Assembly: GCA_947589025.1 (NCBI GenBank)
Contig: CANQAY010000004.1
Span: forward strand, 32,430-96,429
Source: an uncultured Clostridia bacterium
GTDB taxonomy: Bacteria > Bacillota > Clostridia > Christensenellales > UBA1242
Direction: 5' to 3'
Length of the DNA: 64,000 bases
Shown: positions 2,632-63,540 of the stretch, one piece after another
Layout of the letters: every line of letters starts with the position of its first letter
Position numbering within the stretch: position 1 is the stretch's first letter
The notes under the pieces: generated by a model
Database searches by the model: none
What the model saw: only the letters and a program-made list of their open reading frames with translations
Told to the model about the DNA's origin: nothing
Made by a program: the position numbers and the translations under genes

Positions 2632-2648
2632 AATTAAAAAGGAAAATT

Positions 2649-2988: not shown

Positions 2989-3059
2989 AGTTTATAAAAA
3001 TTTTTCAAAAACACTTGCAAATTGCAAAATTATGTGTTATCATACATAAGTTGATTATT

Positions 3060-3092: not shown

Positions 3093-3108
3093 AAATTAGG
3101 AGGTAGAA

Positions 3109-3450: not shown

Positions 3451-3473
3451 GGCAGCAATGCCTTTTTTCTTTT
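3449..3473 (+). terminator. Intrinsic terminator after rplS
   Basis: AAGGCA-GCAA-TGCCTT followed by a T run. Confidence 0.8.
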
Positions 3474-3478
3474 AAATT

Positions 3479-3492
3479 CAAACATTTGTTCG
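3479..3492. promoter_or_regulatory. LexA (SOS/Cheo) box upstream of comM
   Basis: CAAACATTTGTTCG, 13/14 match to CGAAC-N4-GTTCG; exact reverse complement of the box at 60671 in the lexA promoter. Confidence 0.7.
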
Positions 3493-3501
3493 ATAATTTA
3501 G

Positions 3502-3530
3502 TTGACACTATTTGCCAAATTTTGTAAAAT
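3502..3530 (+). promoter_or_regulatory. SigA promoter of comM operon (probably leaderless)
   Basis: TTGACA-N17-TAAAAT, ATG 6 nt downstream, no SD. Confidence 0.75.
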
Positions 3531-3536
3531 AAAATC

Positions 3537-5072
3537 ATGTTAGCAAAAATTTTATCTTATGGGTTAACCGGCATAACTGGTTATCCGGTTACAATTGAAT
3601 TAGATATTAACGCGGGTTTGCCCGGCTATGATGTTGTTGGCTTGGCAGATACCGCAATTAAGGAAAGCAAAAGCAGGGTTAAAGCGGCAATTAAAAACAG
3701 CACATTTAACTATCCTATTAACAAAGTTGTTATTAATCTTGCGCCGGCGGACACTAAAAAAGAGGGCAGTATGTACGATTTGCCCATTGCGCTTGGCATT
3801 TTGGTGGCGGAAGAAGTTTTAACCAATGATTCTTTAAAAGACTATGTTGTGCTTGGCGAACTTAGTTTAAATGGTGATGTTAGAAAATTAAATGGCATTT
3901 TGCCAATGCTAATTTCGGCAAAGCAAATGGGCTATAACAAGTTCATTATTCCAAAAGATAACGCCATGGAAGCCGCCTTTATTGATAAAATTGAAGTTTA
4001 TCCGGTTGAAACATTAAAGCAAGTGGTTGGCTTTTTAAAGGGTGAAATTGAAATTAAGCCAAATGACAATAAAACATATGAAAGTGCACTAAAAGAGCAC
4101 AATTTTAAACACGATTTTGCTTATGTTAAAGGTCAGGTTAGTGCAAAACGTGCAATGGAAATTGCAGCAGCAGGCGGCCATAACATAATTTTAATTGGCC
4201 CACCAGGGGCGGGTAAAACCATGCTTGCAAAATGTTTCCCTTCCATTTTGCCCGATTTAACTTTTGAAGAAAGCCTTGAAGTAACCAAAATTCACAGCGT
4301 GGCTGGTGTGTTGGATGCAAAAAAGGGCATAGTGGTAGAGCGCCCATTTAGAAGCCCGCACCACACTGCAACTTTAATTGCCTTAACGGGCGGCGGCTTA
4401 AAAGCAAAGCCGGGTGAAATTAGTTTGGCACACAATGGCGTTCTATTTTTGGACGAATTGCCCGAATATAACCGCAACACCATAGAAACATTGCGCCAAC
4501 CAATGGAAGATGGCTATATTACCGTTGCCAGAAATGCATTAACTGTGCAATATCCTGCCAATTTCATTTTGGTTGCCAGCATGAACCCATGCCCATGCGG
4601 ATATTATGGCAGCACCACGCACGAGTGTAAATGCACGCCAACCGCAATTCATAACTATTTATCTAAAATTTCTGGCCCGTTGCTGGATAGAATTGATTTG
4701 CATATTGAGGTGGATAGCGTTAATTATGAGGAACTTTCTCACTATCAGTTGGAAGAGCCAAGCATCGAAATTAAAAAGCGCGTAAATAAAGCGCGTGAAA
4801 TTCAGCTTAAACGTTTTAAAAACAACAACGGCGTTTATTCTAACAGCAAAATGAACGAAAAAGAATTTAAGCAATATTGCGCACTGGATAAAGAAAGTAG
4901 CAATTTAATTGAAACAGCGTTTAAAAAATTTAACCTTTCCGCGCGTGCTTATAACCGCATTTTAAAGGTGGCACGCACAATTGCCGACCTTGATGGCAAA
5001 GAACACATAGAAAAACAGCATATAATGGAAGCTATACAATATAGAACTTTGGATAAAAAATACACGGTGTAA
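3537..5072 (+). CDS. comM: ComM / YifB-family Mg-chelatase-like AAA+ ATPase
   Basis: INLAPA..KKEG.MYDL, GPPGAGKT, PFRSPHH, GEISLAHNGVLFLDE, SGPLLDRID, SARAY.RILKVARTIAD. Confidence 0.95.
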   Translation: MLAKILSYGLTGITGYPVTIELDINAGLPGYDVVGLADTAIKESKSRVKAAIKNSTFNYPINKVVINLAPADTKKEGSMYDLPIALGILVAEEVLTNDSLKDYVVLGELSLNGDVRKLNGILPMLISAKQMGYNKFIIPKDNAMEAAFIDKIEVYPVETLKQVVGFLKGEIEIKPNDNKTYESALKEHNFKHDFAYVKGQVSAKRAMEIAAAGGHNIILIGPPGAGKTMLAKCFPSILPDLTFEESLEVTKIHSVAGVLDAKKGIVVERPFRSPHHTATLIALTGGGLKAKPGEISLAHNGVLFLDELPEYNRNTIETLRQPMEDGYITVARNALTVQYPANFILVASMNPCPCGYYGSTTHECKCTPTAIHNYLSKISGPLLDRIDLHIEVDSVNYEELSHYQLEEPSIEIKKRVNKAREIQLKRFKNNNGVYSNSKMNEKEFKQYCALDKESSNLIETAFKKFNLSARAYNRILKVARTIADLDGKEHIEKQHIMEAIQYRTLDKKYTV

Positions 5073-5073
5073 C

Positions 5074-6153
5074 ATGACAATTGAAGATAAAAACATAGTT
5101 TGGCTAGATTTATTTCCATTTTTAAGTTATCAAAAGAAAATTAAATTACTTTCCCTTTTTGATGTAAATTTAGATATCAAAAAGGTTTTTCTTTTAAAAC
5201 CTAAGTTTAGAGAGGTGCTTACACAAGAAGAATTTACAAAAATGAGCGCATTGCTAGATGACAATTATTTAAACACCCAAATTCAGCGTTTTGAAAAGGA
5301 TAACATTCAAATAATAACAATATATAATGAAAAATATCCAGCCTTGCTTAAGGAAATTGATAGCCCACCGCTTTGTTTATATTGCAAAGGCAATTTGCAA
5401 CTTTTAAACACAACAGCAATTTCGGTTGTTGGCACAAGAAAACCAACCGATTATGGCACAGTTGTTACAAAACAATTTGTTAAAGAACTTGCTAATTGTG
5501 GGGTAACAATAGTTTCCGGCATGGCAGTTGGCATAGACACAATTGCCCATAAAACCGCCTTAGAAGAAAACGGCAACACTATTGCCGTGCTAGCTGGCGG
5601 GCTAAACCATATTTATCCATCAATAAACATAGGCTTATCTAGAAAAATTGCCGAAAATAACCTGCTTATAACAGAAACAAGCCCCGATATATCTGCACAA
5701 AATTATTATTTCCCTCTTCGCAACCGCATTATTGCTGGCATATCTAAGGGTGTGTTGGTGCCAGAAGCAGGCGAGAAAAGTGGCTCGCTAATAACAATTA
5801 ATTACGCTATTGATTATAATAGAGAAATTTTTGCCGTTCCCGGCAAAATAAATTCGCCAATGTCGGAGGGAGTAAACAAAATTATTAACGACTTTCCGCC
5901 ATCATTCACCATTTCGCCAGAAAAAATATTGGATTTTTTGCAAATAAAAAAGGAAAATTTAAAAAATTCTTCTGTTCAACTTGACTTAAACGAACAAATT
6001 ATATTAAATTATATATCGGCCGATAAACATACATTTCAAGAGATTGCTGACCATACTAAATTGCCAGCAAATCAATTAAACGCAATTTTGCTTGAACTTG
6101 AAATGAATGGGATAGTTACCAAGTTGGCAAATAATAGTTACATTAAAATTTAA
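5074..6153 (+). CDS. dprA: DNA processing protein DprA
   Basis: YP.LLKEIDSPP, VVGTR, IVSGMA.GID, FPLRNRIIAG, KSGSLIT, AVPG; C-terminal winged helix. Confidence 0.96.
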   Translation: MTIEDKNIVWLDLFPFLSYQKKIKLLSLFDVNLDIKKVFLLKPKFREVLTQEEFTKMSALLDDNYLNTQIQRFEKDNIQIITIYNEKYPALLKEIDSPPLCLYCKGNLQLLNTTAISVVGTRKPTDYGTVVTKQFVKELANCGVTIVSGMAVGIDTIAHKTALEENGNTIAVLAGGLNHIYPSINIGLSRKIAENNLLITETSPDISAQNYYFPLRNRIIAGISKGVLVPEAGEKSGSLITINYAIDYNREIFAVPGKINSPMSEGVNKIINDFPPSFTISPEKILDFLQIKKENLKNSSVQLDLNEQIILNYISADKHTFQEIADHTKLPANQLNAILLELEMNGIVTKLANNSYIKI

Positions 6154-6163
6154 GGAAAGTAAA

Positions 6164-8233
6164 ATGAAATTAGTTTTTATTGAAGGACCGGGTAAACAAG
6201 AAACAATTAAAAAATATTTAGGCGCTGAGTATGTTGTTTTTGCAACCAAAGGGCATGTTAGAGATTTGCCCGCTAACAGTTTTGCAATAGATTTAAAAAA
6301 CAATTATGAGCCTAGTTATGAAATTATTCCAAACAAAAAATCAACAGTTGCAGAACTTAAAAAACTGGCGCAAAAGGCGGATGCAATATACCTTGCAAGC
6401 GATCCGGACCGTGAAGGTGAAGCTATCGCTTGGCATCTTTCCACCATTTTAGGGCTAGATAAAGACGCCAAAGTGCGCACAGCATTTAATGAAATTAGCA
6501 AAAAGGCAGTTAATGCTAGCATTGCCAATCCGCAGCCAATTAATTACGATTTAGTTAACGCACAACAGGGCAGGCGCGTGTTAGATAGAATTATGGGTTA
6601 TAAATTAAGCCCGCTTTTATCTAAAAAAATTCACGGCAAACTATCTGCCGGGCGCGTTCAATCGGTTACATTAAAACTTGTTGTGGATAGGGAAAAGGCT
6701 ATAAAAAGTTTCGTTCCGGAAGAATATTGGAACATTTCGGCAGAATTAAGCAAAAATAACAAAAAATTTAAGGCCGACCTTATTCAGTTTAAAGATAAAA
6801 AGTTAGAAATTAAAAATAAAGAGCAAGTTGATGATATATTAAAAGCAATAGAATCAACCGACTATAAAGTTAACCAAGTTAAAAGGCAAATTACTTATTC
6901 AAAACCGCAGCCGCCATATATTACCAGCAGTTTGCAACAAGATGCACTTTCTAAGCTGAAAATGACCCTTGCAAATTTTACAAAAACAGTGCAATCGTTA
7001 TATGAAGGTGTTATTATAAAAGGCGAGGGCAAAACCGCACTTGTCACATATATTCGTACTGATAGCACCCGCGTAAGCACAGATGCACAATTTATGGCAC
7101 GCGATTATATAATAGAACATTTTGGCAAAGATTATCATCCGGGCAAATTTAACGAATATAGCACAAAACAAGGCGCACAAGATGCCCACGAAGCGATAAG
7201 GCCAATAAATTTAAAGTATACGCCAGAATATTTAACCGGCAAAATTGATGATATTTATTTAAAATTATACACACTAATTTTCAACCGCTTTGTTGCAAGT
7301 CAAATGAGTTGGGCACAATATGACAGCTTAACAGTGGATATTGTTGCAAATAACTATAAATTCCGCTCTAATGGCAAGGCACTTATTTTTGAAGGTTACA
7401 CAAAATTGTTAAAGCCGCAAGATGACGATAAAGATGGCATAAATATTCCAGATTTAGTTGAAGGAGAAACTGTAACTAAAAACAAAATAAAAACCGAGCA
7501 AAAATTCACCAAGCCGCCAGTTCGTTTTACCACTGGCACACTAACGCACGAAATGGAAGTGCAGGGCATTGGGCGCCCTTCAACTTATGCAGCCACAATA
7601 ACCACACTGTTTAATAGGGAATATATTAAAACCGAAAGAAATGCGCTTGTTCCAACCGAACTGGGCATTCAAGTAACAGAATATTTAGAAGAATACTTTA
7701 AACAAGCTATGGACATAAAATTTACTGCAGATATGGAAAAGGAACTTGACGATGTTGAACTTGGCAAAGTTAAATGGCAAGATATTGTAGATAGATTTTA
7801 TGTAGATTTTTCCAAGCAGTTGGAATATGCTAGCCAGCAATCGGGCATAAGTTTGCCAAAATCTTCACCAGAGCCAAGCAACATTAAATGCGAAAAATGT
7901 GGAGCAATGATGGTTTATAGAGAGGGTAAATTTGGTAGATTTTTGGCTTGTTCTAATTACCCTAAATGCAAAAACACAAAAAATTTATCTGAAAATCAAA
8001 TAACCGAAACTGGCATCTGCCCAAAATGTGGCGGAGTGGTTAGTGCAAAACACAGCAAACATGGCAAATTGTTTTTCGGGTGCAATAACTATCCTAAATG
8101 TGATTATATTTCTTGGAATTTGCCATTAAACCGAACCTGTCCAAATTGTGGTGCGCCTCTTTATAAAAAATTTGGGGCAAAGCAAACATCAATAATTTGC
8201 GAAACAAAGGGTTGCAACTATGTTGAGCGTTAA
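6164..8233 (+). CDS. topA: DNA topoisomerase I
   Basis: TOPRIM GHVRDL, ASDPDREGE, SAGRVQS, TYIRTDS, QDAHEAIRP, GIGRPSTY, C-terminal C4 zinc ribbons. Confidence 0.98.
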   Translation: MKLVFIEGPGKQETIKKYLGAEYVVFATKGHVRDLPANSFAIDLKNNYEPSYEIIPNKKSTVAELKKLAQKADAIYLASDPDREGEAIAWHLSTILGLDKDAKVRTAFNEISKKAVNASIANPQPINYDLVNAQQGRRVLDRIMGYKLSPLLSKKIHGKLSAGRVQSVTLKLVVDREKAIKSFVPEEYWNISAELSKNNKKFKADLIQFKDKKLEIKNKEQVDDILKAIESTDYKVNQVKRQITYSKPQPPYITSSLQQDALSKLKMTLANFTKTVQSLYEGVIIKGEGKTALVTYIRTDSTRVSTDAQFMARDYIIEHFGKDYHPGKFNEYSTKQGAQDAHEAIRPINLKYTPEYLTGKIDDIYLKLYTLIFNRFVASQMSWAQYDSLTVDIVANNYKFRSNGKALIFEGYTKLLKPQDDDKDGINIPDLVEGETVTKNKIKTEQKFTKPPVRFTTGTLTHEMEVQGIGRPSTYAATITTLFNREYIKTERNALVPTELGIQVTEYLEEYFKQAMDIKFTADMEKELDDVELGKVKWQDIVDRFYVDFSKQLEYASQQSGISLPKSSPEPSNIKCEKCGAMMVYREGKFGRFLACSNYPKCKNTKNLSENQITETGICPKCGGVVSAKHSKHGKLFFGCNNYPKCDYISWNLPLNRTCPNCGAPLYKKFGAKQTSIICETKGCNYVER

Positions 8234-54730: not shown

Positions 54731-55629
54731 AAAAGGTAGTAATTATTACTGGGCTAACATGCTCGGGCAAAAGTGAACTTGCTTTTAAATTAGCCAAGCA
54801 GTTTAATGGTGAAATAATTTCAGCTGACAGTGTTCAAATTTACAAAGGATTAAACATTGGCAGCGCTAAAGTTGATGCCAAATATAGAAAAATAATACCT
54901 CATCACCTTATTGACATTAGGGCAGCAGACGAAAGTTATAATGTTAACAATTTTGTATTAGATTGCCAAAAATCAATAGATTGTATATTTAATAAAAATA
55001 AAACACCATTTATTGTGGGCGGAACAGGGCTATATGTTAAAGCACTTATTTCGGGTTACACATTTGGAGGTTTAGCTACAAGCGATAATAGGGAAAAGTA
55101 TGAAAAACTTGCAGCCGAAAAAGGCAATGAATATGTTTGGCAGATTTTAAATAAAATTAACCCAAACAAAGCTAAATCCGTGCACCCAAATAACATTAAA
55201 CGTGTTATAAGATACATTGAAATTGAACAATCTGGGGAAACACCCAATAAGTCAGTAAGCATTTTAAACAATATTGATTATCTAGCTGTGGGCATAATTG
55301 ATGATAGAGATACAATATATGGCAAAATAAACGACCGTGTTGACAAAATGATAAATGCCGGGTTGCAAAGTGAAGTAAAAACATTAATTAATTCAGGTGC
55401 AAAGCGAAACTGGCAATCTATGACCTCCATAGGATACAAAGAGTGGTTTGACTTTTTTGAGGGCAAAACCGATTTAAACACAACCGTTGACCTTATAAAA
55501 CAGCATACAAGGAATTATTGCAAACGCCAACTAACCTTTTTAAAAACAATGCCTGAGCTTAAACTGTGCACAATTGACGAAGCGGAAAAATTAATTAAGG
55601 AGTTTTTGAATGATCAAAATAAAAAATGA
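54727..55629 (+). CDS. miaA: tRNA dimethylallyltransferase
   Basis: G.TCSGKS, ADSVQIY, IGSAK, VGGTGLY, IGYKE, TRNYCKRQ. Confidence 0.97.
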   Translation: MKKVVIITGLTCSGKSELAFKLAKQFNGEIISADSVQIYKGLNIGSAKVDAKYRKIIPHHLIDIRAADESYNVNNFVLDCQKSIDCIFNKNKTPFIVGGTGLYVKALISGYTFGGLATSDNREKYEKLAAEKGNEYVWQILNKINPNKAKSVHPNNIKRVIRYIEIEQSGETPNKSVSILNNIDYLAVGIIDDRDTIYGKINDRVDKMINAGLQSEVKTLINSGAKRNWQSMTSIGYKEWFDFFEGKTDLNTTVDLIKQHTRNYCKRQLTFLKTMPELKLCTIDEAEKLIKEFLNDQNKK

Positions 55630-56854
55630 TACTTTAAAATTTTTAAACGAATGCGAAAAAGAATGCCAGCAGCAATTTGAACAAATTGCTAAAATTGAAT
55701 TTGATAATCAACTAAAGGTGCTTAACGCCTTTAATGAGGCGGGGGTAGAGGCTCGCCATTTTATAGGAAGCACAGGTTATGGTCATAATGATATTGGCAA
55801 AGAGAAGCTGTGTGAAGTTTTTGCCCGGGTTTTTAATGCCGAATCCGCATTTGTAACCCCTTTAATAAGTTGCGGCACAGAAGCAATTAGCCAAACGTTG
55901 TTTGGGCTACTGCGCCCAACAGATAGTATGCTTTGCATAAGCGGCACACCATATGACACTTTAAAATCAGTAATACACGGCCAAGAGGGTAAAGATATTG
56001 GTTCACTTAAAGATTACAATATAAAATATAGCGAAGTTGCTTTAAAGTACAACGATTTTGACCTGCCAGCCATAATAAAAGCAGTTAAAAGCAAAAACCC
56101 AAAACTTATTTATATTCAACGTTCGCGCGGGTATTCGCTTAGAAATGCCCTTAACATATCTCAAATTGAAAACGCCATTAAAGCAATTAGGCAATCTGGC
56201 TGCAAGGCGTATGTTGTTGTGGATAACTGTTATGGCGAGTTTACAGAGACCAAAGAGCCAACCGATGTTGGGGCAGATATTGTGGTAGGTTCACTTTTAA
56301 AGAACATGGGTGGGGGCATAGCACCTACAGGCGGGTATATCGCCGGCAAGCAGAATTTGGTTGAAAAGGTGGTTTTTAAAGCCATGAGCCCCGCATTAAG
56401 TTCAGATAATGGCTCGTACGAATTAGGGTATAAGGCATTTTTTGAAGGGTTGTTCGTTTCACCACATGTGGTGGCAGAGGCAAAAAAGTTAACCGTTCTT
56501 GCGAGCTATTCGTTATCAAAACTAGGGTATGAAACCAACCCTAAACCGGGCGACAAACTTTCTGACATTGTCTGCTGCATCAATTTTAAGGATAAATCTA
56601 AACTTATAAATTTCACTAGGGCAATTCAATACGCCAGCGCAGTTGACAGCAATTCCACATTAGAGGCCGGTGATATGGACGGCTATGAAGACAAAATTAT
56701 AATGGCCAGCGGAAGTTTTAATCAGGGCAGCAGCATAGAACTAAGTTGCGATGGCCCAATCCGTCCGCCATACGCAGCATTCCTTCAAGGCTCGCTAAGC
56801 TACGCCCATGGCAAAATAGGATTAGCTTATGCAATAGAAAAATCCCTCCTTTAG
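55610..56854 (+). CDS. ynbB: YnbB / methionine gamma-lyase family (aluminium resistance) PLP protein
   Basis: STGYG..D.G, G.PYDTL, IQRSRGY, DNCYGEF, GSLLKN.GGGIAPTGGY, SIELS.DGP. Confidence 0.9.
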   Translation: MIKIKNDTLKFLNECEKECQQQFEQIAKIEFDNQLKVLNAFNEAGVEARHFIGSTGYGHNDIGKEKLCEVFARVFNAESAFVTPLISCGTEAISQTLFGLLRPTDSMLCISGTPYDTLKSVIHGQEGKDIGSLKDYNIKYSEVALKYNDFDLPAIIKAVKSKNPKLIYIQRSRGYSLRNALNISQIENAIKAIRQSGCKAYVVVDNCYGEFTETKEPTDVGADIVVGSLLKNMGGGIAPTGGYIAGKQNLVEKVVFKAMSPALSSDNGSYELGYKAFFEGLFVSPHVVAEAKKLTVLASYSLSKLGYETNPKPGDKLSDIVCCINFKDKSKLINFTRAIQYASAVDSNSTLEAGDMDGYEDKIIMASGSFNQGSSIELSCDGPIRPPYAAFLQGSLSYAHGKIGLAYAIEKSLL

Positions 56855-56871
56855 GTGGGATTTATTTTTTT
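56840..56871 (+). terminator. Intrinsic terminator after ynbB
   Basis: AAATCCCTCC-TTTA-GGTGGGATTT plus T run. Confidence 0.7.
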
Positions 56872-57005
56872 GCAAAAAATGCGGGTTTTCTTGCATTGGG
56901 GCATTTGGGTCCAAGGTGCAAGAAAACGGCTTTTTCTTTATCTATTATCTCCAAATATCCATTAGGGTAGGGCTAATAAGCATTATCAAACGCCTTAAAA
57001 GCCAC

Positions 57006-57153
57006 TGTGCATAACTGTGCATAACTATGGGGCAGTGCGGAAAGTTTTATCCATATCTTTGCGTAAAAGCCTTCTTTTACGCAAAGATTGTGCCAAAAAT
57101 GGCCTAATTTGTGTGGAAAACACCAAATTTGTCCACAGCCAGCCAGTTGATAA
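57006..57153. promoter_or_regulatory. Cluster of DnaA-box-like 9-mers
   Basis: TGTGCATAA (57006, 57016), TTATCCATA (57047), TGTGGAAAA (57112), TTGTCCACA (57129), each one mismatch from TTATCCACA; AGTTGATAA (57145) two mismatches. Confidence 0.65.
57055..57088. other. Candidate dif-type recombination site
   Basis: ATCTTTGCGTAAAA-GCCTTC-TTTTACGCAAAGAT, perfect 14-bp arms with a 6-bp spacer; arm recurs at 57440, 57498 and 59505; about 2.4 kb from a tyrosine recombinase gene. Confidence 0.65.
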
Positions 57154-57280
57154 CTTTAAGCATGTTTAAAACATGTTTGGCTCGTCAGCCAAAATTGGCA
57201 CTGCAAAAAAACGACTTTTTGTAAACTTCGTTAATTAATTAATTTTGCAACAAAACGCCATTTTCTTGCACGGCTCAAAT

Positions 57281-57413
57281 TTGCAAGTTAACCAATTGTT
57301 CATCTTATTGTTCCGCAATTCGTCTCACGGCAGATCTCTTAACCCCATCGGCTGACCGATTGCTGACTTATATTATTATTTCAATTTTTAAATAATTTGG
57401 TTAAAGCTGGCAA
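57281..57413. ncRNA. Candidate structured non-coding RNA (long hairpin with central bubble)
   Basis: Pairings 57281-57300/57391-57413, 57315-57324/57354-57363, 57329-57335/57347-57353; no family recognised; strand unknown. Confidence 0.3.
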
Positions 57414-57439
57414 TTATCAGCGGAAAACCGCGAAATATC

Positions 57440-57511
57440 ATCTTTGCGTAAAAACTGCTTAAAAATTATATTCAAATAATATCAACTATTAAACAACATC
57501 TTTGCGTAAAA
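57440..57511 (+). repeat. Two lone half-sites ATCTTTGCGTAAAA
   Basis: Exact copies at 57440-57453 and 57498-57511. Confidence 0.85.
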
Positions 57512-57533
57512 AAATCGGCTTATGCCGATTTTA
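57508..57533 (-). terminator. Terminator of serS
   Basis: AAAATCGGC-TTAT-GCCGATTTT with a T run on the minus strand. Confidence 0.75.
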
Positions 57534-57534
57534 A

Positions 57535-58818
57535 TTATTTTACCTTAATAACTTTTGTTCCGCCCATATATGGCCAAAGAACTTTTGGTATTGTTACGCT
57601 GCCATCCTTTTGCAGGTGGTTTTCCACAAAAGCAATCAGCATTCTAGGTGGCGCCACAACAGTGTTGTTTAATGTGTGGGCAAACTGATTACCCTTCTCC
57701 GTCTTATATCTTATGCCCAACCTACGCGCCTGTGCATCGGTTAAATTGCTGCAAGAGCCAACTTCAAAATATTTTTTCTGCCTTGGGCTCCATGCCTCAA
57801 CATCCAAGCTGCGATATTTTAAATCAGCCAAATCGCCCGAGCAGCAAACCAATGTGCGAACAGGTATTTCCATAGAAACAAACAACTCAACTGTATACTG
57901 CCACATTTTTTTATACCATTCTTCACTTTCTTCCGGCTTGCAGATAACCACCATCTCTTGTTTTTCAAACTGGTGAATGCGGTAAATCCCTCTTTCTTCC
58001 AAGCCGTGGGCGCCCTTTTCTTTTCTAAAGCAAGGGCTGTAAGAAGTTAAAGTTATTGGCAATTTTTCTTCTGGAATTATGGTATCCATAAATCGTCCAA
58101 TCATGGAATGCTCACTTGTGCCAATTAAATAAAGGTCTTCCCCTTCAATTTTGTACATCATGTTGCCCATCTCTTCAAAACTCATAACGCCTTGAACAAC
58201 ATTGCCGTGAATCATAAATGGCGGTATAACATAAGTAAAGCCCTTGTTTATCATAAAATCTCGCGCATAAGATAAAATTGCACTATGAAGCCTAGCAATA
58301 TCCCCGGTTAAATAATAAAAGCCTTGGCCTGATGTACGCCTAGCACTGTCAACGTCAATTCCGTCAAGCTTTTCCAAAATTTCGGTGTGATAAGGTATAT
58401 CAAAATCGGGCAGTTTAGCTTCCAAAAAGGTTTCCGCCTGAACATTTTTGCTATCGTCTTCACCAATTGGCACATCGTCTGCAATAATGTTTGGTATGCT
58501 CATCATGTTTTGCTTAATTTTGGCATCTAACTCAGCCGTCTCTTTTTCAATAACTGCAATACGCTCGTTATTCTTAACCACTTGGGCTTTAATTTTTTCG
58601 GCTTCATCTCGTTTGCCGACTTTCATTAAAACGCCAATTTCACCAGAAAGACTATTGCGCTTTGCACGCAATTCATCCCCTTCTTGTTTTAAAAGGCGCA
58701 CTTTTTTATCTAATTCAAGCACCTCATCAACAAGCGGCAATTTATGATTTTGAAATTTTTTCTTTATATTTTCTTTAACTTTTTCAGGGTTAGTTCTTAT
58801 TAAATTAATATCTATCAT
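57535..58818 (-). CDS. serS: Seryl-tRNA synthetase
   Basis: MIDI.LIR, IPN, YLIGTSEH, CFRKE.GA, RIHQF.KQE, EVGSCSN, HTLNNT. Confidence 0.97.
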   Translation of the reverse strand: MIDINLIRTNPEKVKENIKKKFQNHKLPLVDEVLELDKKVRLLKQEGDELRAKRNSLSGEIGVLMKVGKRDEAEKIKAQVVKNNERIAVIEKETAELDAKIKQNMMSIPNIIADDVPIGEDDSKNVQAETFLEAKLPDFDIPYHTEILEKLDGIDVDSARRTSGQGFYYLTGDIARLHSAILSYARDFMINKGFTYVIPPFMIHGNVVQGVMSFEEMGNMMYKIEGEDLYLIGTSEHSMIGRFMDTIIPEEKLPITLTSYSPCFRKEKGAHGLEERGIYRIHQFEKQEMVVICKPEESEEWYKKMWQYTVELFVSMEIPVRTLVCCSGDLADLKYRSLDVEAWSPRQKKYFEVGSCSNLTDAQARRLGIRYKTEKGNQFAHTLNNTVVAPPRMLIAFVENHLQKDGSVTIPKVLWPYMGGTKVIKVK

Positions 58819-58892: not shown

Positions 58893-59411
58893 TTAAAGTA
58901 TTTCATCGCTTAAAAATGTGTTAAATGCGGTTAAAAATAAATCTTGGTCAACTGTCATGCCCGCCTTTTCTGCTTTTTCAGCATCTTTTAAGCGGCCAGC
59001 GTGCGCGCTAAATGTCCTATTTATGCTTGTGGCAATTGCGTTAGAAAACTTTTCAGCAAAAAGTTCGTTATGCTTTTGATATAAGTGATCGGTATCAGCA
59101 ATTAACTTCTCTGCCCTCTTTTCTGGCATGCCAGTAAATATAGACACTAATTGAGCATTGGTTAAATCGTCTTTTAGCTTATTTTCTTTTGCTTTAATAA
59201 GTTGCAACACAACACTAAATTTTAATTGGCAATAATGAGTTAAAACATACATTGCATTTTTAAATTTTTTATTGCAGAATTCAACAATGTTGTTATACCC
59301 TAAACCATATTTCTTTTCTATATCAATTAATTTATTAATATCTGATCTTTCAATTTCAGTTAAATGCATCAATTCTTCTAAGCCCTTTTTTCTTAACATT
59401 TCATTATCCAT
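58893..59411 (-). CDS. Hypothetical protein
   Basis: 172-aa ORF, GGAGG SD, perfect TTGACA-N17-TATAAT promoter at 59433-59461 (minus strand). Confidence 0.75.
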   Translation of the reverse strand: MDNEMLRKKGLEELMHLTEIERSDINKLIDIEKKYGLGYNNIVEFCNKKFKNAMYVLTHYCQLKFSVVLQLIKAKENKLKDDLTNAQLVSIFTGMPEKRAEKLIADTDHLYQKHNELFAEKFSNAIATSINRTFSAHAGRLKDAEKAEKAGMTVDQDLFLTAFNTFLSDEIL

Positions 59412-59499: not shown

Positions 59500-59528
59500 T
59501 TGTTTTTTACGCAAAGATGGTGTAAAAT
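59500..59528 (+). promoter_or_regulatory. Promoter of the recombinase gene, containing a dif-like half-site
   Basis: TTGTTT-N17-TAAAAT; TTTTACGCAAAGAT at 59505-59518; ATG 6 nt after the -10. Confidence 0.6.
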
Positions 59529-59534
59529 AAAATT

Positions 59535-60575
59535 ATGTCAAACAATTATTATTTAGATAGAAACCGCAACAATATGCGCAAATTAAATGAAATGTTAAAG
59601 GACTTGCCAACATTTTGTAGCATTTTCTTTATAGGCATACAAGATACCACAACACCATTAACCAGAATTAATTATGCTGTAGACTTAAAAACCTTTTTTA
59701 CTTACCTTACAACTTATGAAAGCGACTTTTTAAATAAGCCTTTTAACCAAATAACCATTGCCGATTTAGATAATGTTACCTCCCAAACCATTGAGCGCTA
59801 TATGGCCTATTTATCATATTACGATAAAGAAAATGGCGTTGTAATCACCAATTCTGAGCGTGGTAAACTGAGAAAACTATCCAGTTTGCGGGCATTTTTT
59901 AAATACTTTTTTAATAAAGATATGCTTAAAGCAAATGTGGCAAGCAAAGTTAGCTCACCCAAATTGCATGAAAAACCCATCATAAAACTAGAGCCGCAAG
60001 AAACACAAGAACTTATGTATTTTTGCGAAACCTTAAATGGATTTTCTAATCATCAACAAAAATATAATGAAAAATTTAAAATTAGGGATAATGCCATAAT
60101 TTCACTATTTTTAACTACGGGGATACGTGTTAGCGAATGTGTTGGCCTTAATATTGATGACTTTAACTTTACCCTTAATTCGTTTAGAGTTACAAGAAAA
60201 GGCGGCAACCAAGTTATATTATATTTTGGTGAAGAAACCTCCAAAATTTTGCAAGATTATTTAAAGTATAGAGACAGTTTAAATGTGCCAAAAGAAGAAC
60301 GCGCCATGTTTTTATCTAGCCAAAATAAGCGCATGATGGTTCGAACTATGGAATATTTAGTTAAAAAATATACTAAATTGGCCACCCCTTTAAAAAACAT
60401 TACCCCACACAAACTGCGCTCTACTTATGGCACAAATTTGTATAATGAAACAAAAGACATTTACATTGTTGCCGAAGTTTTGGGCCACAAAGATGTTAAC
60501 ACAACCAAAAAACACTATGCCGCAATTAGCGATGATATCAGGCGTTCTGTTGCAGGAAAGGTAAAATTAAAATAG
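59535..60575 (+). CDS. Tyrosine recombinase, XerS/XerC-like
   Basis: Complete catalytic set TGIRVSE, RKGG, TPHKLR, LGH, HY; 346 aa; next to lexA as in clostridial ynbB-xer-lexA clusters. Confidence 0.9.
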   Translation: MSNNYYLDRNRNNMRKLNEMLKDLPTFCSIFFIGIQDTTTPLTRINYAVDLKTFFTYLTTYESDFLNKPFNQITIADLDNVTSQTIERYMAYLSYYDKENGVVITNSERGKLRKLSSLRAFFKYFFNKDMLKANVASKVSSPKLHEKPIIKLEPQETQELMYFCETLNGFSNHQQKYNEKFKIRDNAIISLFLTTGIRVSECVGLNIDDFNFTLNSFRVTRKGGNQVILYFGEETSKILQDYLKYRDSLNVPKEERAMFLSSQNKRMMVRTMEYLVKKYTKLATPLKNITPHKLRSTYGTNLYNETKDIYIVAEVLGHKDVNTTKKHYAAISDDIRRSVAGKVKLK

Positions 60576-60648
60576 ATTTTGTGTATTATACATTTTAAAT
60601 ACACAACATTCAGTTTAAATTTAAAAAATAATTTAATATAGTGTCTTT

Positions 60649-60699
60649 CGAAAAAATTTTCGAAAAATATCGAACAAATGTTTGACAAACAATTGTTTT
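60649..60699. promoter_or_regulatory. LexA boxes in the lexA promoter
   Basis: CGAACAAATGTTTG (60671), CAAACAATTGTTTT (60686), CGAAAAAATTTTCG (60649), around TTGACA (60682)..TATTAT. Confidence 0.75.
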
Positions 60700-60730
60700 T
60701 TTGCTATTATAAAATTAATTAAGGAGCAAT

Positions 60731-61318
60731 ATGAATAAAACTGAACAAACTTATGAATTTATCACTAAATACATAGAAAACAATAAATACCCCCCTACTA
60801 TTAGGGAAATTTGTGATAATTTGAACTTGGATTCCACTTCAAGTGCGGTTTATCATTTAAAAAAACTTGAAAAAATGGGCAAAATTTTAAGAGGCACAAA
60901 CAAAAACCGTGCCATTGAATTAGCTCACAACAACCTAAACAATGGCATTACCCTTTCAGTTGTTGGTGAAATTGCCGCCGGCACCCCAATTTTGGCCGAG
61001 CAAAATTTGATTGATAGTTTTGTTGTTTCTGAAAATCTTTTTACGGGTAAAGACATGTTTGTGTTAAAAGTTAAAGGTGATAGCATGATAAATGTTGGCA
61101 TATATAATGGCGATTACGTTGTAATTTCTAAACAATCTGTGGCAAATAATGGTGAAATTGTTGCCTGTTTAATTGACAACGAAGCCACCGTGAAACGCTA
61201 TTATAAAGAAAATGGCTTTTTTAGGCTTCAACCAGAAAATTCGTTTATGCAGCCAATTTACACCACTCAATTGGAAATTTTGGGCAAAGTTGTAGGCTTA
61301 ATAAGAAATAACATTTAA
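60731..61318 (+). CDS. lexA: SOS repressor LexA
   Basis: YPPTIREI, VG.IAAG.P cleavage site, V.GDSM (Ser), EATVK (Lys), RLQPEN. Confidence 0.97.
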   Translation: MNKTEQTYEFITKYIENNKYPPTIREICDNLNLDSTSSAVYHLKKLEKMGKILRGTNKNRAIELAHNNLNNGITLSVVGEIAAGTPILAEQNLIDSFVVSENLFTGKDMFVLKVKGDSMINVGIYNGDYVVISKQSVANNGEIVACLIDNEATVKRYYKENGFFRLQPENSFMQPIYTTQLEILGKVVGLIRNNI

Positions 61319-61347
61319 AAATAAAGGTTATATAATCTTTATTTTTT
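61317..61347 (+). terminator. Terminator after lexA
   Basis: AAAAATAAAGGTT-ATAT-AATCTTTATTTTT. Confidence 0.65.
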
Positions 61348-61412
61348 ATTTTAAATTGTTTGCTTATTATTAAATAAATATATATAATTTATATATATGC
61401 ATAAGAGGTGTT

Positions 61413-62600
61413 ATGAAAACAACAGATTTAATACCCTTAATTCTTTTAGAATTAAATGAAAGTGATAAATATGGCTTTGAATTAACAAAGGCTATAGAAA
61501 CAAAATCTAGTGGCAAAATTGTAATTAAACAGCCCACCCTATACACTATTTTAAAGAAGTTGGAAAAATCCAAGTTCATAACTTCTTATTGGGAAGATAG
61601 CGAAATTGGTGGCAAGCGCCATTATTATAAAATTACCGAAAACGGCAAAGCATTAATTAGCACTTTGCCTAATTACTCCACCCTGCTTTCTAACATATCA
61701 AACGATGAGGCTGACGACGCTGAAGTTGGCCAAGAGTTTGATAGCCAAAATAGCAACATAATGGCAGATGGTGCACCAAATGAAGAGCAACAAGAAACCG
61801 AAATCAACGCAGAACCAGAACAGGTAGTTTTTGAACAAGAACTTAAAGAGTCTGCTCTGCCTAGTGAAGAAATTTTTAAAGATGATTCAGTTGACACTTT
61901 AACTGAACACGAACTTAATTCTATGAATAGCAGCATTTTAAAAGATGATAAAGTGAACAATGAACAACAATTTGCGGCTAACGAAAGTGTTTCTAAATTT
62001 ACTGAAACAAAATCGGCAGAAATTAGTGATGAATATAAAACAAAGTTAAAAACTGTTTCTAACAGCACATTATTTGGTTTGGAACCTGCCACGCCAAAAG
62101 AAGATGAAGAGAAAAATGTTAAATTTGTTGAATATTCTAACATTAAATCTGCCCCAAATTACATATACTCAAACAAAATGGCAAAAAACATGCTGTATCG
62201 CATAATTTCAAGCTCTGCCTATCTTTTATTTATGCTTATTTTCACCTCCATTATTGTGGGGTTTACTGGCAGCGGCGCTTTATATTATTTATTTTTAATT
62301 ATTGGAATTTTAGCCTTAGTGTTGTTTCCTGCCATATATGCTTTTAATTATGATAAATTTAAACAAAAATGCCAAAATAAACAATATAAATTGAACTTAA
62401 AAAAACAAATTATATTTGCCCTATCGTTTATGTTGGCCGTTCTTTTAATGTGCTTTATTGTAAACCTATGCATGGGCGTAAGTTTCTTTAAAATATTTGC
62501 TAGTTTTGCCAATTTTTATGCCCCATTGTTAATTTCAAGTTGTGTTTGTATGGACATTCTATTTTCTTACTTGTTCGTTTTTAAAAATTTAAAGGATTAG
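61413..62600 (+). CDS. PadR-family wHTH fused to an acidic linker and a 4-TM membrane domain
   Basis: IL.EL...DKYGFEL, TLY.ILKKLE, I.SYW, RHYY.ITE.G; D/E-rich middle; four C-terminal hydrophobic helices. Confidence 0.85.
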   Translation: MKTTDLIPLILLELNESDKYGFELTKAIETKSSGKIVIKQPTLYTILKKLEKSKFITSYWEDSEIGGKRHYYKITENGKALISTLPNYSTLLSNISNDEADDAEVGQEFDSQNSNIMADGAPNEEQQETEINAEPEQVVFEQELKESALPSEEIFKDDSVDTLTEHELNSMNSSILKDDKVNNEQQFAANESVSKFTETKSAEISDEYKTKLKTVSNSTLFGLEPATPKEDEEKNVKFVEYSNIKSAPNYIYSNKMAKNMLYRIISSSAYLLFMLIFTSIIVGFTGSGALYYLFLIIGILALVLFPAIYAFNYDKFKQKCQNKQYKLNLKKQIIFALSFMLAVLLMCFIVNLCMGVSFFKIFASFANFYAPLLISSCVCMDILFSYLFVFKNLKD

Positions 62601-62607
62601 GAGATTT

Positions 62608-63540
62608 ATGATACCTGTTTTAAGCGTTAAAAACATTACAAAGGTGTATGGAACAAAAAAGGTTGTAAAAAATGTTTCATTTAGTTTGTATCCCGGGCAA
62701 ATTTTTGGTTTTGTTGGGCCTAACGGTGCCGGAAAGTCTACTACTATTAGAATGATTACTGGCCTTACTTTGCCAACAAGTGGAAGCATAAGAATTTGCG
62801 GATACAGCATAACAAAAAGCTTTAAACAAGCAATTTCTAATGTTGGTGCAGTAGTTGAAATGCCTCAACTATACCCTTACCTCTCGGGTGAAAAAAACTT
62901 AAAACTTTATGCAAAATTTTATGGCAAGGCGGCAGTAAAGCGCATCCCTCAAATTGTTAAATTGGTTGGCATGGAAAACCGAATTAAAGATAAAGTATCG
63001 GCATATTCTTTAGGCATGAAGCAACGTTTGGGCATTGCTCAGGCATTGTTAAACAAACCAAAACTTTTAATTTTGGACGAACCAACTAACGGCCTTGACC
63101 CTAATGGAATTGTTGAAATGCGCAACATTTTAAAAATTCTTGCAGAAAAAGAAAACATAACTATTATTATTTCCAGCCATAATTTAGCCGAACTTGAACA
63201 AACTTGTGATGTTATTGGCTTAATAAACAATGGTTCGCTTATTGAATATAAAACCATGGCAGAAATAGATAAAATGATTGAAAATGAACAAAAAATTCAA
63301 TTTTTGTGCAATTACCCTAACTATGCGGCAATGCTTGTTAAAAAGAAATTTAAATTAATGAGCAAAGTGGTTGGCAATTCAATTTTGTTGCCTTTAAAAG
63401 AAAAAGATATTGCAACTGTAGTTTCTTATTTAACCAACAACAAAATTAAAATTTATAGCATAAAGAAAATTCAAAAAACCTTAGAAGAATTATACTTTGA
63501 ATTGCTTAACAGCACTCGCTCATCGTCTAGCATATTATAG
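62608..63540 (+). CDS. ABC transporter ATP-binding protein (BcrA/exporter type)
   Basis: GPNGAGKST, YSLGMKQRL, LILDEPTNGLDP, SSH. Confidence 0.95.
   Translation: MIPVLSVKNITKVYGTKKVVKNVSFSLYPGQIFGFVGPNGAGKSTTIRMITGLTLPTSGSIRICGYSITKSFKQAISNVGAVVEMPQLYPYLSGEKNLKLYAKFYGKAAVKRIPQIVKLVGMENRIKDKVSAYSLGMKQRLGIAQALLNKPKLLILDEPTNGLDPNGIVEMRNILKILAEKENITIIISSHNLAELEQTCDVIGLINNGSLIEYKTMAEIDKMIENEQKIQFLCNYPNYAAMLVKKKFKLMSKVVGNSILLPLKEKDIATVVSYLTNNKIKIYSIKKIQKTLEELYFELLNSTRSSSSIL

What the first reader, a model, noticed from the sequence alone, without database searches (positions are those of the whole stretch)
56871..57270. Mirror-symmetric 400-bp multi-motif element at the probable replication terminus
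Seen: everything is arranged around the axis 57071.5 of a perfect palindrome. The inner 25-bp repeats end at 56941 and start at 57202, both 130.5 bp from the axis. The outer ones start at 56871 and end at 57270 (200.5 and 198.5 bp). Inverted DnaA-like boxes at 57006-57014 and 57129-57137 are in exact mirror positions. About 57 kb of + strand genes converge here on serS(-), and by eye third-codon positions on the + strand turn C-rich to the right. Inference: a designed nucleoprotein platform at ter, combining a recombinase core site, DnaA sites and sites for a further factor, reminiscent of accessory-sequence-controlled sites such as cer/psi but chromosomal. It could link dimer resolution or termination to DnaA. 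I know no description of this arrangement.
Basis: partly seen in the sequence, partly recalled or inferred. Interest (0 to 1): 0.85.

Follow-up and report, generated by a model that had tools for sequence, protein, structure and literature searches.

The report
Terminus dif site ringed by DnaA boxes
The perfect palindrome is the chromosome-dimer resolution (dif) site of a single Xer recombinase at the replication terminus of a small gut Clostridia genome. In this genus it is flanked at fixed spacing by conserved DnaA boxes, whereas the 25-bp repeats and the exact 400-bp mirror layout occur in this one species only.

Summary
All stated features are at the stated coordinates. The organism is a Ca. 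Onthoplasma-like Clostridia MAG (record titles).

**Core site.** The palindrome at 57055-57088 reads as arm 14 / centre 6 / arm 14.
- It is conserved downstream of ynbB in 17 of 24 same-genus genomes, and 16 of those 17 have perfectly symmetric arms.
- It lies at the GC-skew switch.
- Its arm motif occurs only in this locus.
- One half-site sits inside the promoter of the neighbouring XerS-like recombinase gene.
- Integrase-less microvirus prophages are inserted exactly at its centre in three relatives.

I read it as a dif site.

**DnaA boxes.** They are conserved in fixed register at -51.5, +44.5, +61.5 and +123.5 bp from the axis. They are missing from the deep clade, from other families and from one sub-lineage.

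**What is not conserved.** The four 25-bp repeats occur in this genome only and pair into two hairpins.

**Verdict.** The Xer/dif module is a new member of a known kind. The DnaA-box collar is unusual and its function is untested.

The parts
55610..56854 (+). ynbB-like PLP enzyme gene, the last of the long run of + strand genes (left flank)
   Evidence: Pfam Met_gamma_lyase PF06838, 481.6 bits. A match was found in 39 of 41 related genomes.
56833..56870 (+). intrinsic terminator hairpin of ynbB with a T run
   Evidence: Inverted repeat I6. RNA fold of 56826-56875: -17.9 kcal/mol, z -4.5.
56871..56941 (+). 25-bp repeats a (56871-56895) and b (56917-56941). The right half of a pairs with the left half of b to form a hairpin followed by a U-rich tail. 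Found in this genome only.
   Evidence: D1, I18; -25.6 kcal/mol, z -3.4. Not found in the relatives' intervals.
57006..57024 (-). two DnaA-like boxes TGTGCATAA (57006-57014 and 57016-57024) created by a 10-bp tandem duplication ACTGTGCATA x2. The second is the genus-conserved box at -51.5.
   Evidence: (D14). The -51.5 box has at most 2 mismatches in 30 of 31 loci. The -61.5 box has at most 1 mismatch in 3 of 31.
57047..57055 (+). DnaA-like box TTATCCATA abutting the left arm (weakly conserved)
   Evidence: at most 2 mismatches in 5 of 31 loci.
57055..57088 (.). dif-type core site: left arm ATCTTTGCGTAAAA (57055-57068), central region GCCTTC (57069-57074), right arm TTTTACGCAAAGAT (57075-57088)
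   Evidence: Microvirus prophages are inserted at the boundary of the central region in relatives. The site lies at the skew switch.
57112..57137 (.). head-to-head pair of DnaA boxes: TGTGGAAAA (57112-57120, - strand, +44.5) and TTGTCCACA (57129-57137, + strand, +61.5)
   Evidence: The +61.5 box has at most 1 mismatch in 28 of 31 loci. The +44.5 box has at most 2 mismatches in 27 of 31.
57202..57270 (-). 25-bp repeats c (57202-57226) and d (57246-57270), which pair with each other into one long hairpin. Found in this genome only.
   Evidence: - strand fold -25.1 kcal/mol, z -3.6. Not found in the relatives' intervals.
57441..57511 (+). two lone half-sites TCTTTGCGTAAAA (57441-57453 and 57499-57511), oriented towards the palindrome. 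The second follows the serS terminator.
57511..57532 (-). serS terminator hairpin
   Evidence: -11.2 kcal/mol, z -5.2.
57535..58818 (-). serS (seryl-tRNA synthetase), convergent on ynbB
   Evidence: Pfam tRNA-synt_2b and Seryl_tRNA_N.
59505..59517 (-). lone half-site (TTTTACGCAAAGA on the + strand) inside the xer promoter, between a -35-like TTGTTT and the -10 box
   Evidence: Present in 37 of 43 genus loci. The deep clade has its own arm variant at the same place.
59535..60575 (+). XerS-like tyrosine recombinase, the only Xer-type gene found in the genome
   Evidence: Pfam Phage_integrase. NCBIfam XerS 176.2 bits over nearly the full length, below the cut-off of 267. No XerD over the cut-off in 25 genus genomes. 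PDB best match XerD, E 1.4e-20.
60671..61318 (+). lexA with its own Cheo-type SOS box CGAACAAATGTTTG (60671-60684). This shows that the palindrome motif is not the LexA operator.

Best explanation
SHOWN BY SEQUENCE AND COMPARISON.
- The 34-bp palindrome is the single, terminus-located recombination site of the neighbouring XerS-like tyrosine recombinase. It is a dif site with two near-identical 11-14 bp arms around an asymmetric 6-bp central region.
- The genome has one Xer-type gene and an FtsK with a gamma domain.
- Integrase-less microviruses have inserted at the edge of the central region in three relatives.

INFERRED.
- After replication, FtsK brings the two dif copies of a chromosome dimer together. 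Two Xer monomers per site then exchange strands across the 6-bp centre.
- Xer also binds a lone half-site in the spacer of its own promoter and so represses itself.
- Further lone half-sites point inward from both flanks. Their role is unknown.
- In the main clade of the genus, the core is embraced by three or four DnaA boxes at fixed distances. The spacing is rigid while the surrounding intergenic DNA cannot be aligned. I therefore think DnaA most likely binds here as part of one nucleoprotein complex with the Xer site, as an accessory or insulating partner, and not as an independent titration site. This step is a weak inference, about 0.35.
- The four 25-bp repeats of this genome are the arms of two hairpins, one on each side. 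They are most likely inward-facing terminator or insulator structures of the two convergent transcription units. That would explain the mirror layout in this one species.
For: Terminus.
- Cumulative GC skew of C4 peaks in the bin that holds the site.
- In relative G020, a 275,764-bp contig has skew of about +0.15 for roughly 120 kb on the left and about -0.15 for roughly 110 kb on the right. The maximum is in the 135-140 kb bin, and the palindrome is at 139,459. ORF strands are 84+/16- on the left and 31+/77- on the right.
- In two closed genomes of other families, xer lies about opposite dnaA: G033 at 24 kb against 1,254 kb of about 2.4 Mb, and G028 at 2,269 kb against 911 kb of 2.56 Mb.

Core site.
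- 17 of 24 same-genus genomes have an arm-6-arm site within 1.5 kb after ynbB. Of these, 16 have perfectly symmetric 13-nt arms across five arm variants.
- In the wider, overlapping set, 29 of 32 main-clade sites are symmetric.
- A homologous 28-bp site, CTATTCGYAAAA-N6-TTTTRCGAATAG, is present in the deep clade and in other families, 80-290 bp upstream of xer in several of them.

Locus specificity.
- All 5 copies in G000 lie in this locus.
- In relatives, 4 of 4 copies (G015, G002, G018, G001, G020, G017) and 7 of 7 copies (G024) lie in the ynbB-xer interval. The reversed control pattern gives 0-1 per genome.

Recombinase.
- The XerS model matches residues 11-339.
- The gene is found in 37 of 41 related genomes.
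- No XerD scores over the cut-off in 25 genus genomes.
- The second tyrosine recombinase of G000 scores 65.9 bits against the XerD cut-off of 329.6.
- FtsK with a gamma domain is present.

Natural recombination events. G008, G019 and the L169/L198 genome carry 5.2-5.3 kb microvirus prophages with a major head protein (phrog_514, 734.6 and 550.8 bits), a replication initiator (phrog_942) and a pilot protein, but no integrase. The host-to-phage sequence break falls right after or inside the 6-bp centre.

Autoregulation. The half-site lies between the -35 and -10 boxes of the xer promoter in 37 of 43 genus loci. In 3 of 3 deep-clade loci the half-site at that place is TTTTGCGAATAG, which matches that clade's own palindrome arms.

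DnaA boxes, in 31 main-clade loci.
- -51.5: at most 2 mismatches in 30.
- +44.5: at most 2 mismatches in 27.
- +61.5: at most 1 mismatch in 28.
- +123.5: at most 1 mismatch in 16.
- Random 9-mers of the same loci reach at most 2 mismatches in 0.2% of cases.
- The block from -56 to +66 aligns without gaps in 15 of 17 sequences.
- The site is the top DnaA-box cluster of G020's 275-kb contig.
- The same consensus is clustered upstream of dnaA in relatives.

Hairpins.

Not LexA: lexA has its own Cheo-type box.
Against: - No binding, cleavage or expression data exist. All genomes are MAGs.
- dnaA itself is not in the G000 assembly, although 18 of 24 genus relatives have it.
- The recombinase is below NCBI's XerS cut-off, and the site has a 6-bp centre, not the 11-bp centre of difSL.
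- The DnaA boxes are absent within +/-150 bp of the homologous site in 8 of 9 deep-clade and other-family loci. They are also absent in G010/G019, where the right arm is degenerate as well. They are therefore not needed for Xer function in general.
- In L169/L198 the left flank of the functional site is phage coding DNA. The left-hand box is therefore dispensable or replaceable.
- 3 of 32 main-clade sites have asymmetric arms.
- The concerted symmetry of the arms is not explained by protein binding alone and would also fit a hairpin or cruciform.
- The right-hand 25-bp hairpin has no U tail.
- Only 18 of 46 lone half-sites follow a hairpin by my crude detector.
- Related genomes are not independent observations.
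Confidence: 0.6

Rival explanations
1. The DnaA-box cluster is an independent DnaA titration or regulation locus, like datA or the DnaA-box clusters of B. subtilis. It merely shares the long terminus intergenic region with dif. Because it is replicated last, it could report completion of replication to the initiator pool. It would have no physical role in Xer recombination.
For: - Three to five consensus-like boxes are clustered here. This is the second-densest cluster in G000 and the densest on G020's contig.
- Passages read in PMC3245932 say that a single B. subtilis cluster partly complemented a six-cluster deletion even when placed in the terminus region.
- The boxes are absent from outgroup dif sites, so Xer does not need them.
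Against: - The same passages say natural clusters are almost all close to oriC and that the effect depends on location.
- A titration site needs no fixed register to a neighbouring palindrome. Yet the -56 to +66 block is ungapped in 15 of 17 species while the surrounding DNA cannot be aligned.
- The boxes lie on both sides of the core.
Confidence: 0.25
2. The boxes are operators of one or more DnaA-regulated promoters in this 680-1400 bp intergenic region. These would drive a small RNA, a small protein or transcription across dif. The conserved spacing would then reflect promoter geometry.
For: - The intergenic region is long and holds further conserved blocks, for example 57290-57330.
- Many lone half-sites are followed by TTGACA-like and TATAAT-like hexamers reading towards the core.
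- Promoter-like sites are over-represented: 9 found against 3.6 +/- 2.0 in shuffles.
Against: - No Rfam family reaches its gathering score.
- No conserved ORF was seen.
- No RNA run was available to test transcription.
- No -10 or -35 box stands in a conserved register to the boxes in the alignment.
Confidence: 0.15
3. The palindrome is only an operator, or a hairpin-forming structural element, for a regulator of the xer-lexA-padR genes. It would not be a recombination site.
For: - The same half-site sits in the xer promoter.
- The arms co-vary symmetrically, as stem pairs would.
- The RNA fold gives -19.9 kcal/mol, z -8.3.
- A PadR-family regulator is encoded downstream.
Against: - Three integrase-less prophages are inserted at the edge of the central region.
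- The site sits at the skew switch.
- It has the 11-6-11 layout with inner AAAA/TTTT, like the difSL and difH arms quoted in PMC5357621.
- In other families the site stays next to xer.
- There is no T tract after the hairpin, so it is not a terminator.
- lexA has its own canonical box.
Confidence: 0.05
4. The element is a second or dormant replication origin, or the remnant of an integrated replicon's origin: DnaA boxes around a structure-prone palindrome.
For: A cluster of DnaA boxes on both strands lies around an easily extruded palindrome.
Against: - The skew polarity and gene orientation show forks converging here, not diverging.
- dnaA with its own box cluster lies elsewhere.
- A parAB-linked cluster on C8 fits the origin region.
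- I looked for no unwinding element.
Confidence: 0.03

Closest known systems
XerS/difSL of streptococci and lactococci (single-recombinase dimer resolution module)
   Same: - One long Xer-type recombinase of about 350 aa. The XerS model is its best NCBIfam match and covers nearly the full length.
- No XerD partner in the genus.
- The site and the gene are genetically linked at the terminus.
- The arms end in ...CG.AAAA / TTTT..., like the difSL arms TTTCCGAAAA / TTTTCTTGAAA quoted in PMC5357621 (passages read).
- FtsK with a gamma domain is present.
   Different: - The score is below the XerS equivalog cut-off (176 against 267).
- The centre is 6 bp, not 11 bp, and the site is 28-34 bp, not 31 bp.
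- The arms are near-perfectly symmetric, whereas difSL is asymmetric.
- In this genus, serS separates the site from xer by about 2.4 kb. A separate half-site remains in the xer promoter.
- The host is a Christensenellales-like Clostridia lineage.
IMEX: integrative elements exploiting Xer, including the microvirus proviruses of Bacteroidetes (PMC3091885) and the gokushovirus prophages of enterobacteria (PMC7062461)
   Same: Microvirus prophages of about 5 kb without an integrase gene are inserted at the dif-type site. They are flanked by one hybrid site and one complete site. I read passages of PMC3091885. For PMC7062461 I saw only the search listing and the start of the abstract.
   Different: The host system is a single XerS-like recombinase in Clostridia, not XerC/D. 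In G008 about 45 bp of the box-bearing left flank is duplicated next to the phage.
DnaA-box clusters outside oriC (E. coli datA, DARS1/2; the six B. subtilis clusters, PMC3245932)
   Same: A non-coding cluster of consensus-like DnaA boxes outside the dnaA/oriC region, conserved among relatives.
   Different: The known clusters are origin-proximal or mid-replichore and are not built around a recombination site (passages read). This one is at the terminus and is in rigid register with dif. In the listings of two literature searches I saw no paper whose title or abstract start reports DnaA boxes flanking dif.
cer/psi accessory sequences of plasmid Xer sites
   Same: A Xer core site with adjacent conserved protein-binding DNA that could shape the synapse.
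   Different: As I recall (no call read on this), cer and psi have about 180 bp of accessory DNA on one side, bound by ArgR/PepA or ArcA/PepA. Here the boxes lie on both sides, are of DnaA type and are chromosomal. No function is shown.

Membership tests
dif/Xer chromosome dimer resolution site (generic) | Two inverted recombinase-binding arms of about 11 bp around a 6-8 bp central region | tested here: met
   Arms of 14 nt, centre of 6 nt, arms of 14 nt in G000. A conserved 11-6-11 core is present across the order.
dif/Xer chromosome dimer resolution site (generic) | Location at the replication terminus (GC-skew switch, opposite dnaA) | tested here: met
   (maximum in the bin holding the site). 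(closed genomes G033 and G028).
dif/Xer chromosome dimer resolution site (generic) | One complete site per chromosome | tested here: met
   The complete palindrome occurs once in G000. Relatives have one complete site plus lone half-sites.
dif/Xer chromosome dimer resolution site (generic) | A Xer-type tyrosine recombinase acts on it, dependent on FtsK | not testable with these tools
   The genes are present. The only natural proxy is prophage insertion at the centre without a phage integrase.
XerS/difSL | The recombinase reaches the XerS equivalog score | tested here: not met
   176.2 bits against the cut-off of 267. It is still the best-scoring family.
XerS/difSL | A 31-bp site with an 11-bp central region and unequal arms | tested here: not met
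   The centre is 6 bp and the arms are symmetric. The difSL features are as quoted in PMC5357621.
XerS/difSL | The site is immediately adjacent to the recombinase gene; a single recombinase without a XerC/D pair | tested here: inconclusive
   The site is adjacent (80-290 bp) in other families and in the deep outgroup. It is about 2.4 kb away in this genus, with only a half-site at the promoter. No XerD is present in 25 genus genomes, but two other families have one.
DnaA-box cluster (datA / DBC type) | Several boxes close to TTATCCACA within a few hundred bp, conserved in relatives | tested here: met
   Not met in the deep clade, in other families or in G010/G019.
DnaA-box cluster (datA / DBC type) | DnaA binds and initiation control is affected | not testable with these tools
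   No binding data exist. dnaA is missing from the G000 assembly but present in 18 of 24 genus relatives.
oriC | Skew minimum and diverging genes, normally next to dnaA/dnaN | tested here: not met
   The skew is at its maximum and the genes converge. dnaA lies elsewhere.
Intrinsic terminators (for the 25-bp repeats) | A stable hairpin followed by a U run on the transcribed strand | tested here: inconclusive
   The left hairpin has a U-rich tail. The right hairpin does not, but is followed by a second small terminator-like hairpin.

The most novel reading that the evidence does not exclude
In Ca. Onthoplasma the replication initiator DnaA is a structural partner of the dimer-resolution site. 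DnaA bound at fixed positions on both sides of dif would gate or orient Xer recombination. Alternatively, or in addition, it would let the last-replicated locus feed back on the initiator pool. Either way, termination and dimer resolution would be physically coupled to initiation control. Microviruses that integrate here may copy part of this collar.
Probability: 0.2. Interest if true: 0.85.

Novelty: new variant of a known kind. Interest (0 to 1): 0.6.

Why it matters
Single-recombinase Xer systems are known from streptococci and lactococci, epsilon-proteobacteria, archaea and Legionellales. This locus adds a Christensenellales-like Clostridia lineage. It comes with a clearly defined site, a likely self-repression loop and natural microvirus hijackers.

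The unusual part is the conserved DnaA-box collar in rigid register with dif at the terminus. If DnaA binds there, it would be a direct and testable link between the initiator protein and the end of the replication cycle. I saw no report of such a link in the listings of my searches.

The element is short, about 135 bp. It could be tested in vitro with two purified proteins, even though the organism is uncultured.

Tried and rejected
Rfam. A scan of 56300-57900 at E <= 1 gave five weak matches, all far below their gathering scores. The best was BSnc120 at 29.8 bits against 114, lying over the ynbB terminator. I treat them as chance.

Extended inverted duplication of the 400 bp: rejected. Mirrored identity is 65 of 200 against 53 +/- 6 for shuffles. 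The best offset gives 73 of 200 among 13 offsets tried.

Motif B as a promoter element by itself: rejected by reading the four contexts.

Motif B as the LexA operator: rejected, because lexA has a Cheo-type box. GAAC-N4-GTTC occurs once in the window, elsewhere.

Origin of replication: rejected on skew polarity.

Viral collection scans.
- The full palindrome pattern gave 0 hits.
- The left arm plus one base gave 32 hits. That is about what I estimated by hand for chance, and none had the flank context.
- Of 78 microvirus contigs related to the G008 capsid, 7 carried any arm-like match. Only L198 is informative, and it is the same prophage and host as L169. L263 has a possible attP of the other-family type.

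Sequencing runs. No RNA holder was listed: three DNA runs of one study, kept as contigs.

The 172-aa ORF at 58893-59411 has no Pfam or NCBIfam match. Its one PHROG hit is E 0.064. It was found in 2 of 40 other genomes. I saw no link to the repeats.

The hairpin-before-half-site idea holds for only 18 of 46 copies, by a crude detector.

Not run: structure prediction, complex prediction, the large protein searches and the protein atlas. They would not change the reading.

Supplementary files of papers were not opened. The supplements of PMC3091885 (Xer tables) and PMC3245932 could bear on comparisons.
Full report
**What is at the coordinates**

- A perfect palindrome: 15-nt arms, 4 nt between them, axis 57071.5.
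- Four related 25-bp units at 56871, 56917, 57202 and 57246.
- DnaA-like boxes with one mismatch at 57006-57014 and 57129-57137, each centred 61.5 bp from the axis. Three more lie at 57016-57024, 57047-57055 and 57112-57120.

The motifs are not background.
- The 13-nt arm TCTTTGCGTAAAA occurs five times in the 962-kb genome. All five copies lie in this locus: the two arms, two lone copies at 57441 and 57499, and one at 59505 just upstream of a tyrosine recombinase gene.
- The 25-bp unit is also nearly confined to this spot.
- This is the second-densest DnaA-box cluster of the genome.

**Where it lies**

The window is contig C4:32430-96429 of a 19-contig, 99%-complete genome. Record titles of close relatives name Candidatus Onthoplasma and uncultured Clostridia or Christensenella from animal and human guts.

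On C4 nearly all long ORFs are on the + strand up to 88 kb. The cumulative GC skew peaks in the 88-90 kb bin that holds the finding, and a clear - strand run starts at 98 kb.

The best test comes from relative G020.
- On a 275,764-bp contig the skew is about +0.15 for roughly 120 kb and then about -0.15 for roughly 110 kb.
- The maximum is in the 135-140 kb bin. The homologous palindrome is at 139,459.
- ORF strands are 84+/16- to its left and 31+/77- to its right.

In two closed genomes of other families, the xer/ynbB locus lies about opposite dnaA. The terminus assignment stands.

**The palindrome is a dif-type site**

The neighbouring 346-aa recombinase matches NCBI's XerS model best. The match covers residues 11-339 and scores 176 bits, below the cut-off of 267.
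- It is present in 37 of 41 related genomes.
- No XerD reaches its cut-off in any of the 25 genus genomes.
- The only other tyrosine recombinase of G000 is a generic integrase.
- An FtsK with a gamma domain is present.

Census of the 24 same-genus genomes.
- 17 have an arm-6-arm site within 1.5 kb after ynbB.
- 2 have it displaced by a prophage.
- 3 contigs end too early.
- 2 deep-clade genomes carry extra genes there.

Of the 17, 16 have perfectly symmetric 13-nt arms, although five arm variants occur. G010 has 3 mismatches. In a wider, overlapping set, 29 of 32 main-clade sites are symmetric. The 6-bp centre is asymmetric and varies (GCCTTC, CACTTC, CTCTTC, CCCTTC, CAACAC).

The deep clade and other families carry a homologous 28-bp site, CTATTCGYAAAA-N6-TTTTRCGAATAG, often 80-290 bp upstream of xer. 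This is the 11-6-11 format of dif. The arm ends resemble the difSL and difH arms quoted in a review (PMC5357621, passages read).

The strongest evidence comes from prophages in relatives. In G008, a 5.3-kb insert sits exactly at the site.
- It encodes a microvirus major head protein (734.6 bits), a replication initiator, a pilot protein and a repressor, but no integrase.
- The left junction keeps the left arm plus CACTTC and then diverges.
- The right junction is the complete palindrome.

G019 and the L169/L198 genome carry similar prophages at the same place. This is the signature of elements that exploit Xer, as proposed for Bacteroidetes microviruses (PMC3091885, passages read).

**Lone half-sites**

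In 37 of 43 genus loci, one half-site lies between a -35-like TTGTTT and an extended -10 box of the xer promoter. In 3 of 3 deep-clade loci the half-site at that place has that clade's own arm sequence. This co-variation argues that one protein reads both the dif arms and the promoter, so Xer probably represses itself.

Other lone copies point towards the palindrome from one or both sides, often in pairs. 18 of 46 follow a terminator-like hairpin by a crude detector. I cannot say what they do.

lexA, downstream of xer, has its own Cheo-type box, so the motif is not the LexA operator.

**The DnaA boxes**

An alignment of 17 genus loci shows one rigid block around the palindrome, ungapped in 15 of the 17. 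Outside the arms, its only invariant columns are the GTGGA and TCCAC cores of DnaA boxes.

Box conservation in 31 main-clade loci:

| Position from axis | Threshold | Loci meeting it |
|---|---|---|
| -51.5 | at most 2 mismatches | 30 of 31 |
| +44.5 | at most 2 mismatches | 27 of 31 |
| +61.5 | at most 1 mismatch | 28 of 31 |
| +123.5 | at most 1 mismatch | 16 of 31 |
| random 9-mers of the same loci | at most 2 mismatches | 0.2% |

In G000 the -61.5 box comes from a 10-bp tandem duplication (D14). The exact mirror is therefore a local accident. The conserved layout is asymmetric.

The same consensus is clustered upstream of dnaA in relatives, and next to parAB in G000. The site is the top cluster on G020's 275-kb contig.

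Against a general requirement:
- No box lies within +/-150 bp of the site in 8 of 9 deep-clade and other-family loci.
- G010 and G019 lack the boxes.
- In L169/L198 the left flank of the working site is phage coding DNA.
- dnaA is missing from the G000 assembly but present in 18 of 24 genus relatives. I take this to be an assembly gap.

**The 25-bp repeats**

They were found in none of the relatives' ynbB-xer intervals. The only match in 52 loci, about 567 kb, is one terminator-like hit downstream of xer in L139. Four relatives examined for other flanking repeat families showed none beyond the arm motif.

Folding shows that the repeats are the arms of two hairpins.
- Left: a pairs with b, -25.6 kcal/mol, z -3.4, followed by a U-rich tail.
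- Right: d pairs with c on the - strand, -25.1 kcal/mol, z -3.6, with no U tail. A small terminator-like hairpin follows it.

Two inward-facing hairpins at the ends of two convergent transcription units would give a mirror layout without any designed platform. I hold this reading at about 0.4-0.5.

**Mechanism, with odds**

- About 0.85: forks meet here, and the XerS-like recombinase resolves dimers at the 34-bp site with FtsK. Microviruses use the same reaction to integrate.
- About 0.6: Xer represses its own promoter through the half-site.
- About 0.7: DnaA binds the boxes.
- About 0.35: DnaA binding is coupled to the Xer complex as an accessory, orienting or insulating partner. The argument is the rigid register on both sides of the core.
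- The rivals are an independent titration or regulation cluster (0.25) and promoter control of an unseen transcript (0.15). A B. subtilis study reports that such clusters are nearly all origin-proximal, although one placed at the terminus still had a partial effect (PMC3245932, passages read).

**Comparison and novelty**

The Xer/dif module is a new member of the single-recombinase kind. It is closest to XerS/difSL but fails two of its defining features, the score cut-off and the 11-bp centre. The prophages are ordinary IMEX-type microviruses in a new host group.

The DnaA-box collar in register with dif at the terminus matched nothing I saw in the listings of two full-text searches: 'DnaA box' + 'dif site' + 'terminus' (24 papers, 15 listed) and 'DnaA-box cluster' + 'terminus' (18 papers, 12 listed). 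This is not proof of absence.

**Limits**

- Everything rests on MAG sequence and comparison among related, non-independent genomes.
- There are no binding or expression data.
- No RNA run was listed.

Noticed in passing
G000 whole genome; contig C8:19263-19390: No dnaA gene was found in this 99%-complete assembly: the DnaA model scores 41.5 bits at best and there is no DnaA C-terminal domain. 18 of 24 genus relatives have dnaA. The densest DnaA-box cluster of G000 (6 boxes, 3 perfect) lies next to parA/parB and a DHH-family gene on C8, probably in the origin region.
   Followed up: partly
L064 (G008) oriented 1932-7271; L196 (G019) 526-5762; L169/L198: Three microvirus prophages of 5.2-5.3 kb without an integrase are inserted at the dif-type site of relatives. 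In G008, about 45 bp of the host-like left flank, including two box-like motifs, is repeated next to the phage replication gene.
   Followed up: yes
window 59535-63540 compared with L075-L080: In other families of the order, the gene order is ynbB(+) lexA(-) xer(-). In this genus the xer-lexA-padR block is inverted and serS lies between ynbB and xer. This points to a past inversion at the terminus.
   Followed up: partly
window 57290-57330: A further conserved block, AACCAATTGTTCATCTT...CAATTCGTCT, is shared by many genus loci about 250 bp right of the palindrome. It has no Rfam match and no conserved ORF. Its function is unknown.
   Followed up: no
window 56962-56978 and 57026-57040: A TAGGG(T/C)AG motif recurs left of the palindrome (TTAGGGTAGGG about 100 bp away, GGGGCAGTG next to it). 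It is conserved in the 17-locus alignment. Its role is unknown.
   Followed up: no
window 58893-59411 (-): A 172-aa ORF with no family match was found in only 2 of 40 other genomes. One is G013, in the same terminus region. It is a sporadic accessory gene between serS and xer.
   Followed up: partly
window 60671-60684: A Cheo-type SOS box, CGAACAAATGTTTG, overlaps the -35 box (TTGACA) of the lexA promoter.
   Followed up: partly
window 59523-59537: In G000 and several relatives, the -10 box of xer ends about 6 nt before the ATG. This suggests a leaderless mRNA. Other relatives have a 30-60 nt leader with a GGAG-type ribosome-binding site.
   Followed up: no
L197 (G013:C3) 860-900: A pair of lone half-sites 28 bp apart, following a terminator hairpin, lies 13 kb to the left of the palindrome (upstream of murI). 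This is far outside the usual interval.
   Followed up: no
L263 (IMG/VR microvirus contig, 5591 bp) 3377: A free microvirus genome carries CTATTCGCAAAA-CATGTG followed by a degenerate second arm. This resembles the dif variant of other Christensenellales families and may be an attP.
   Followed up: no
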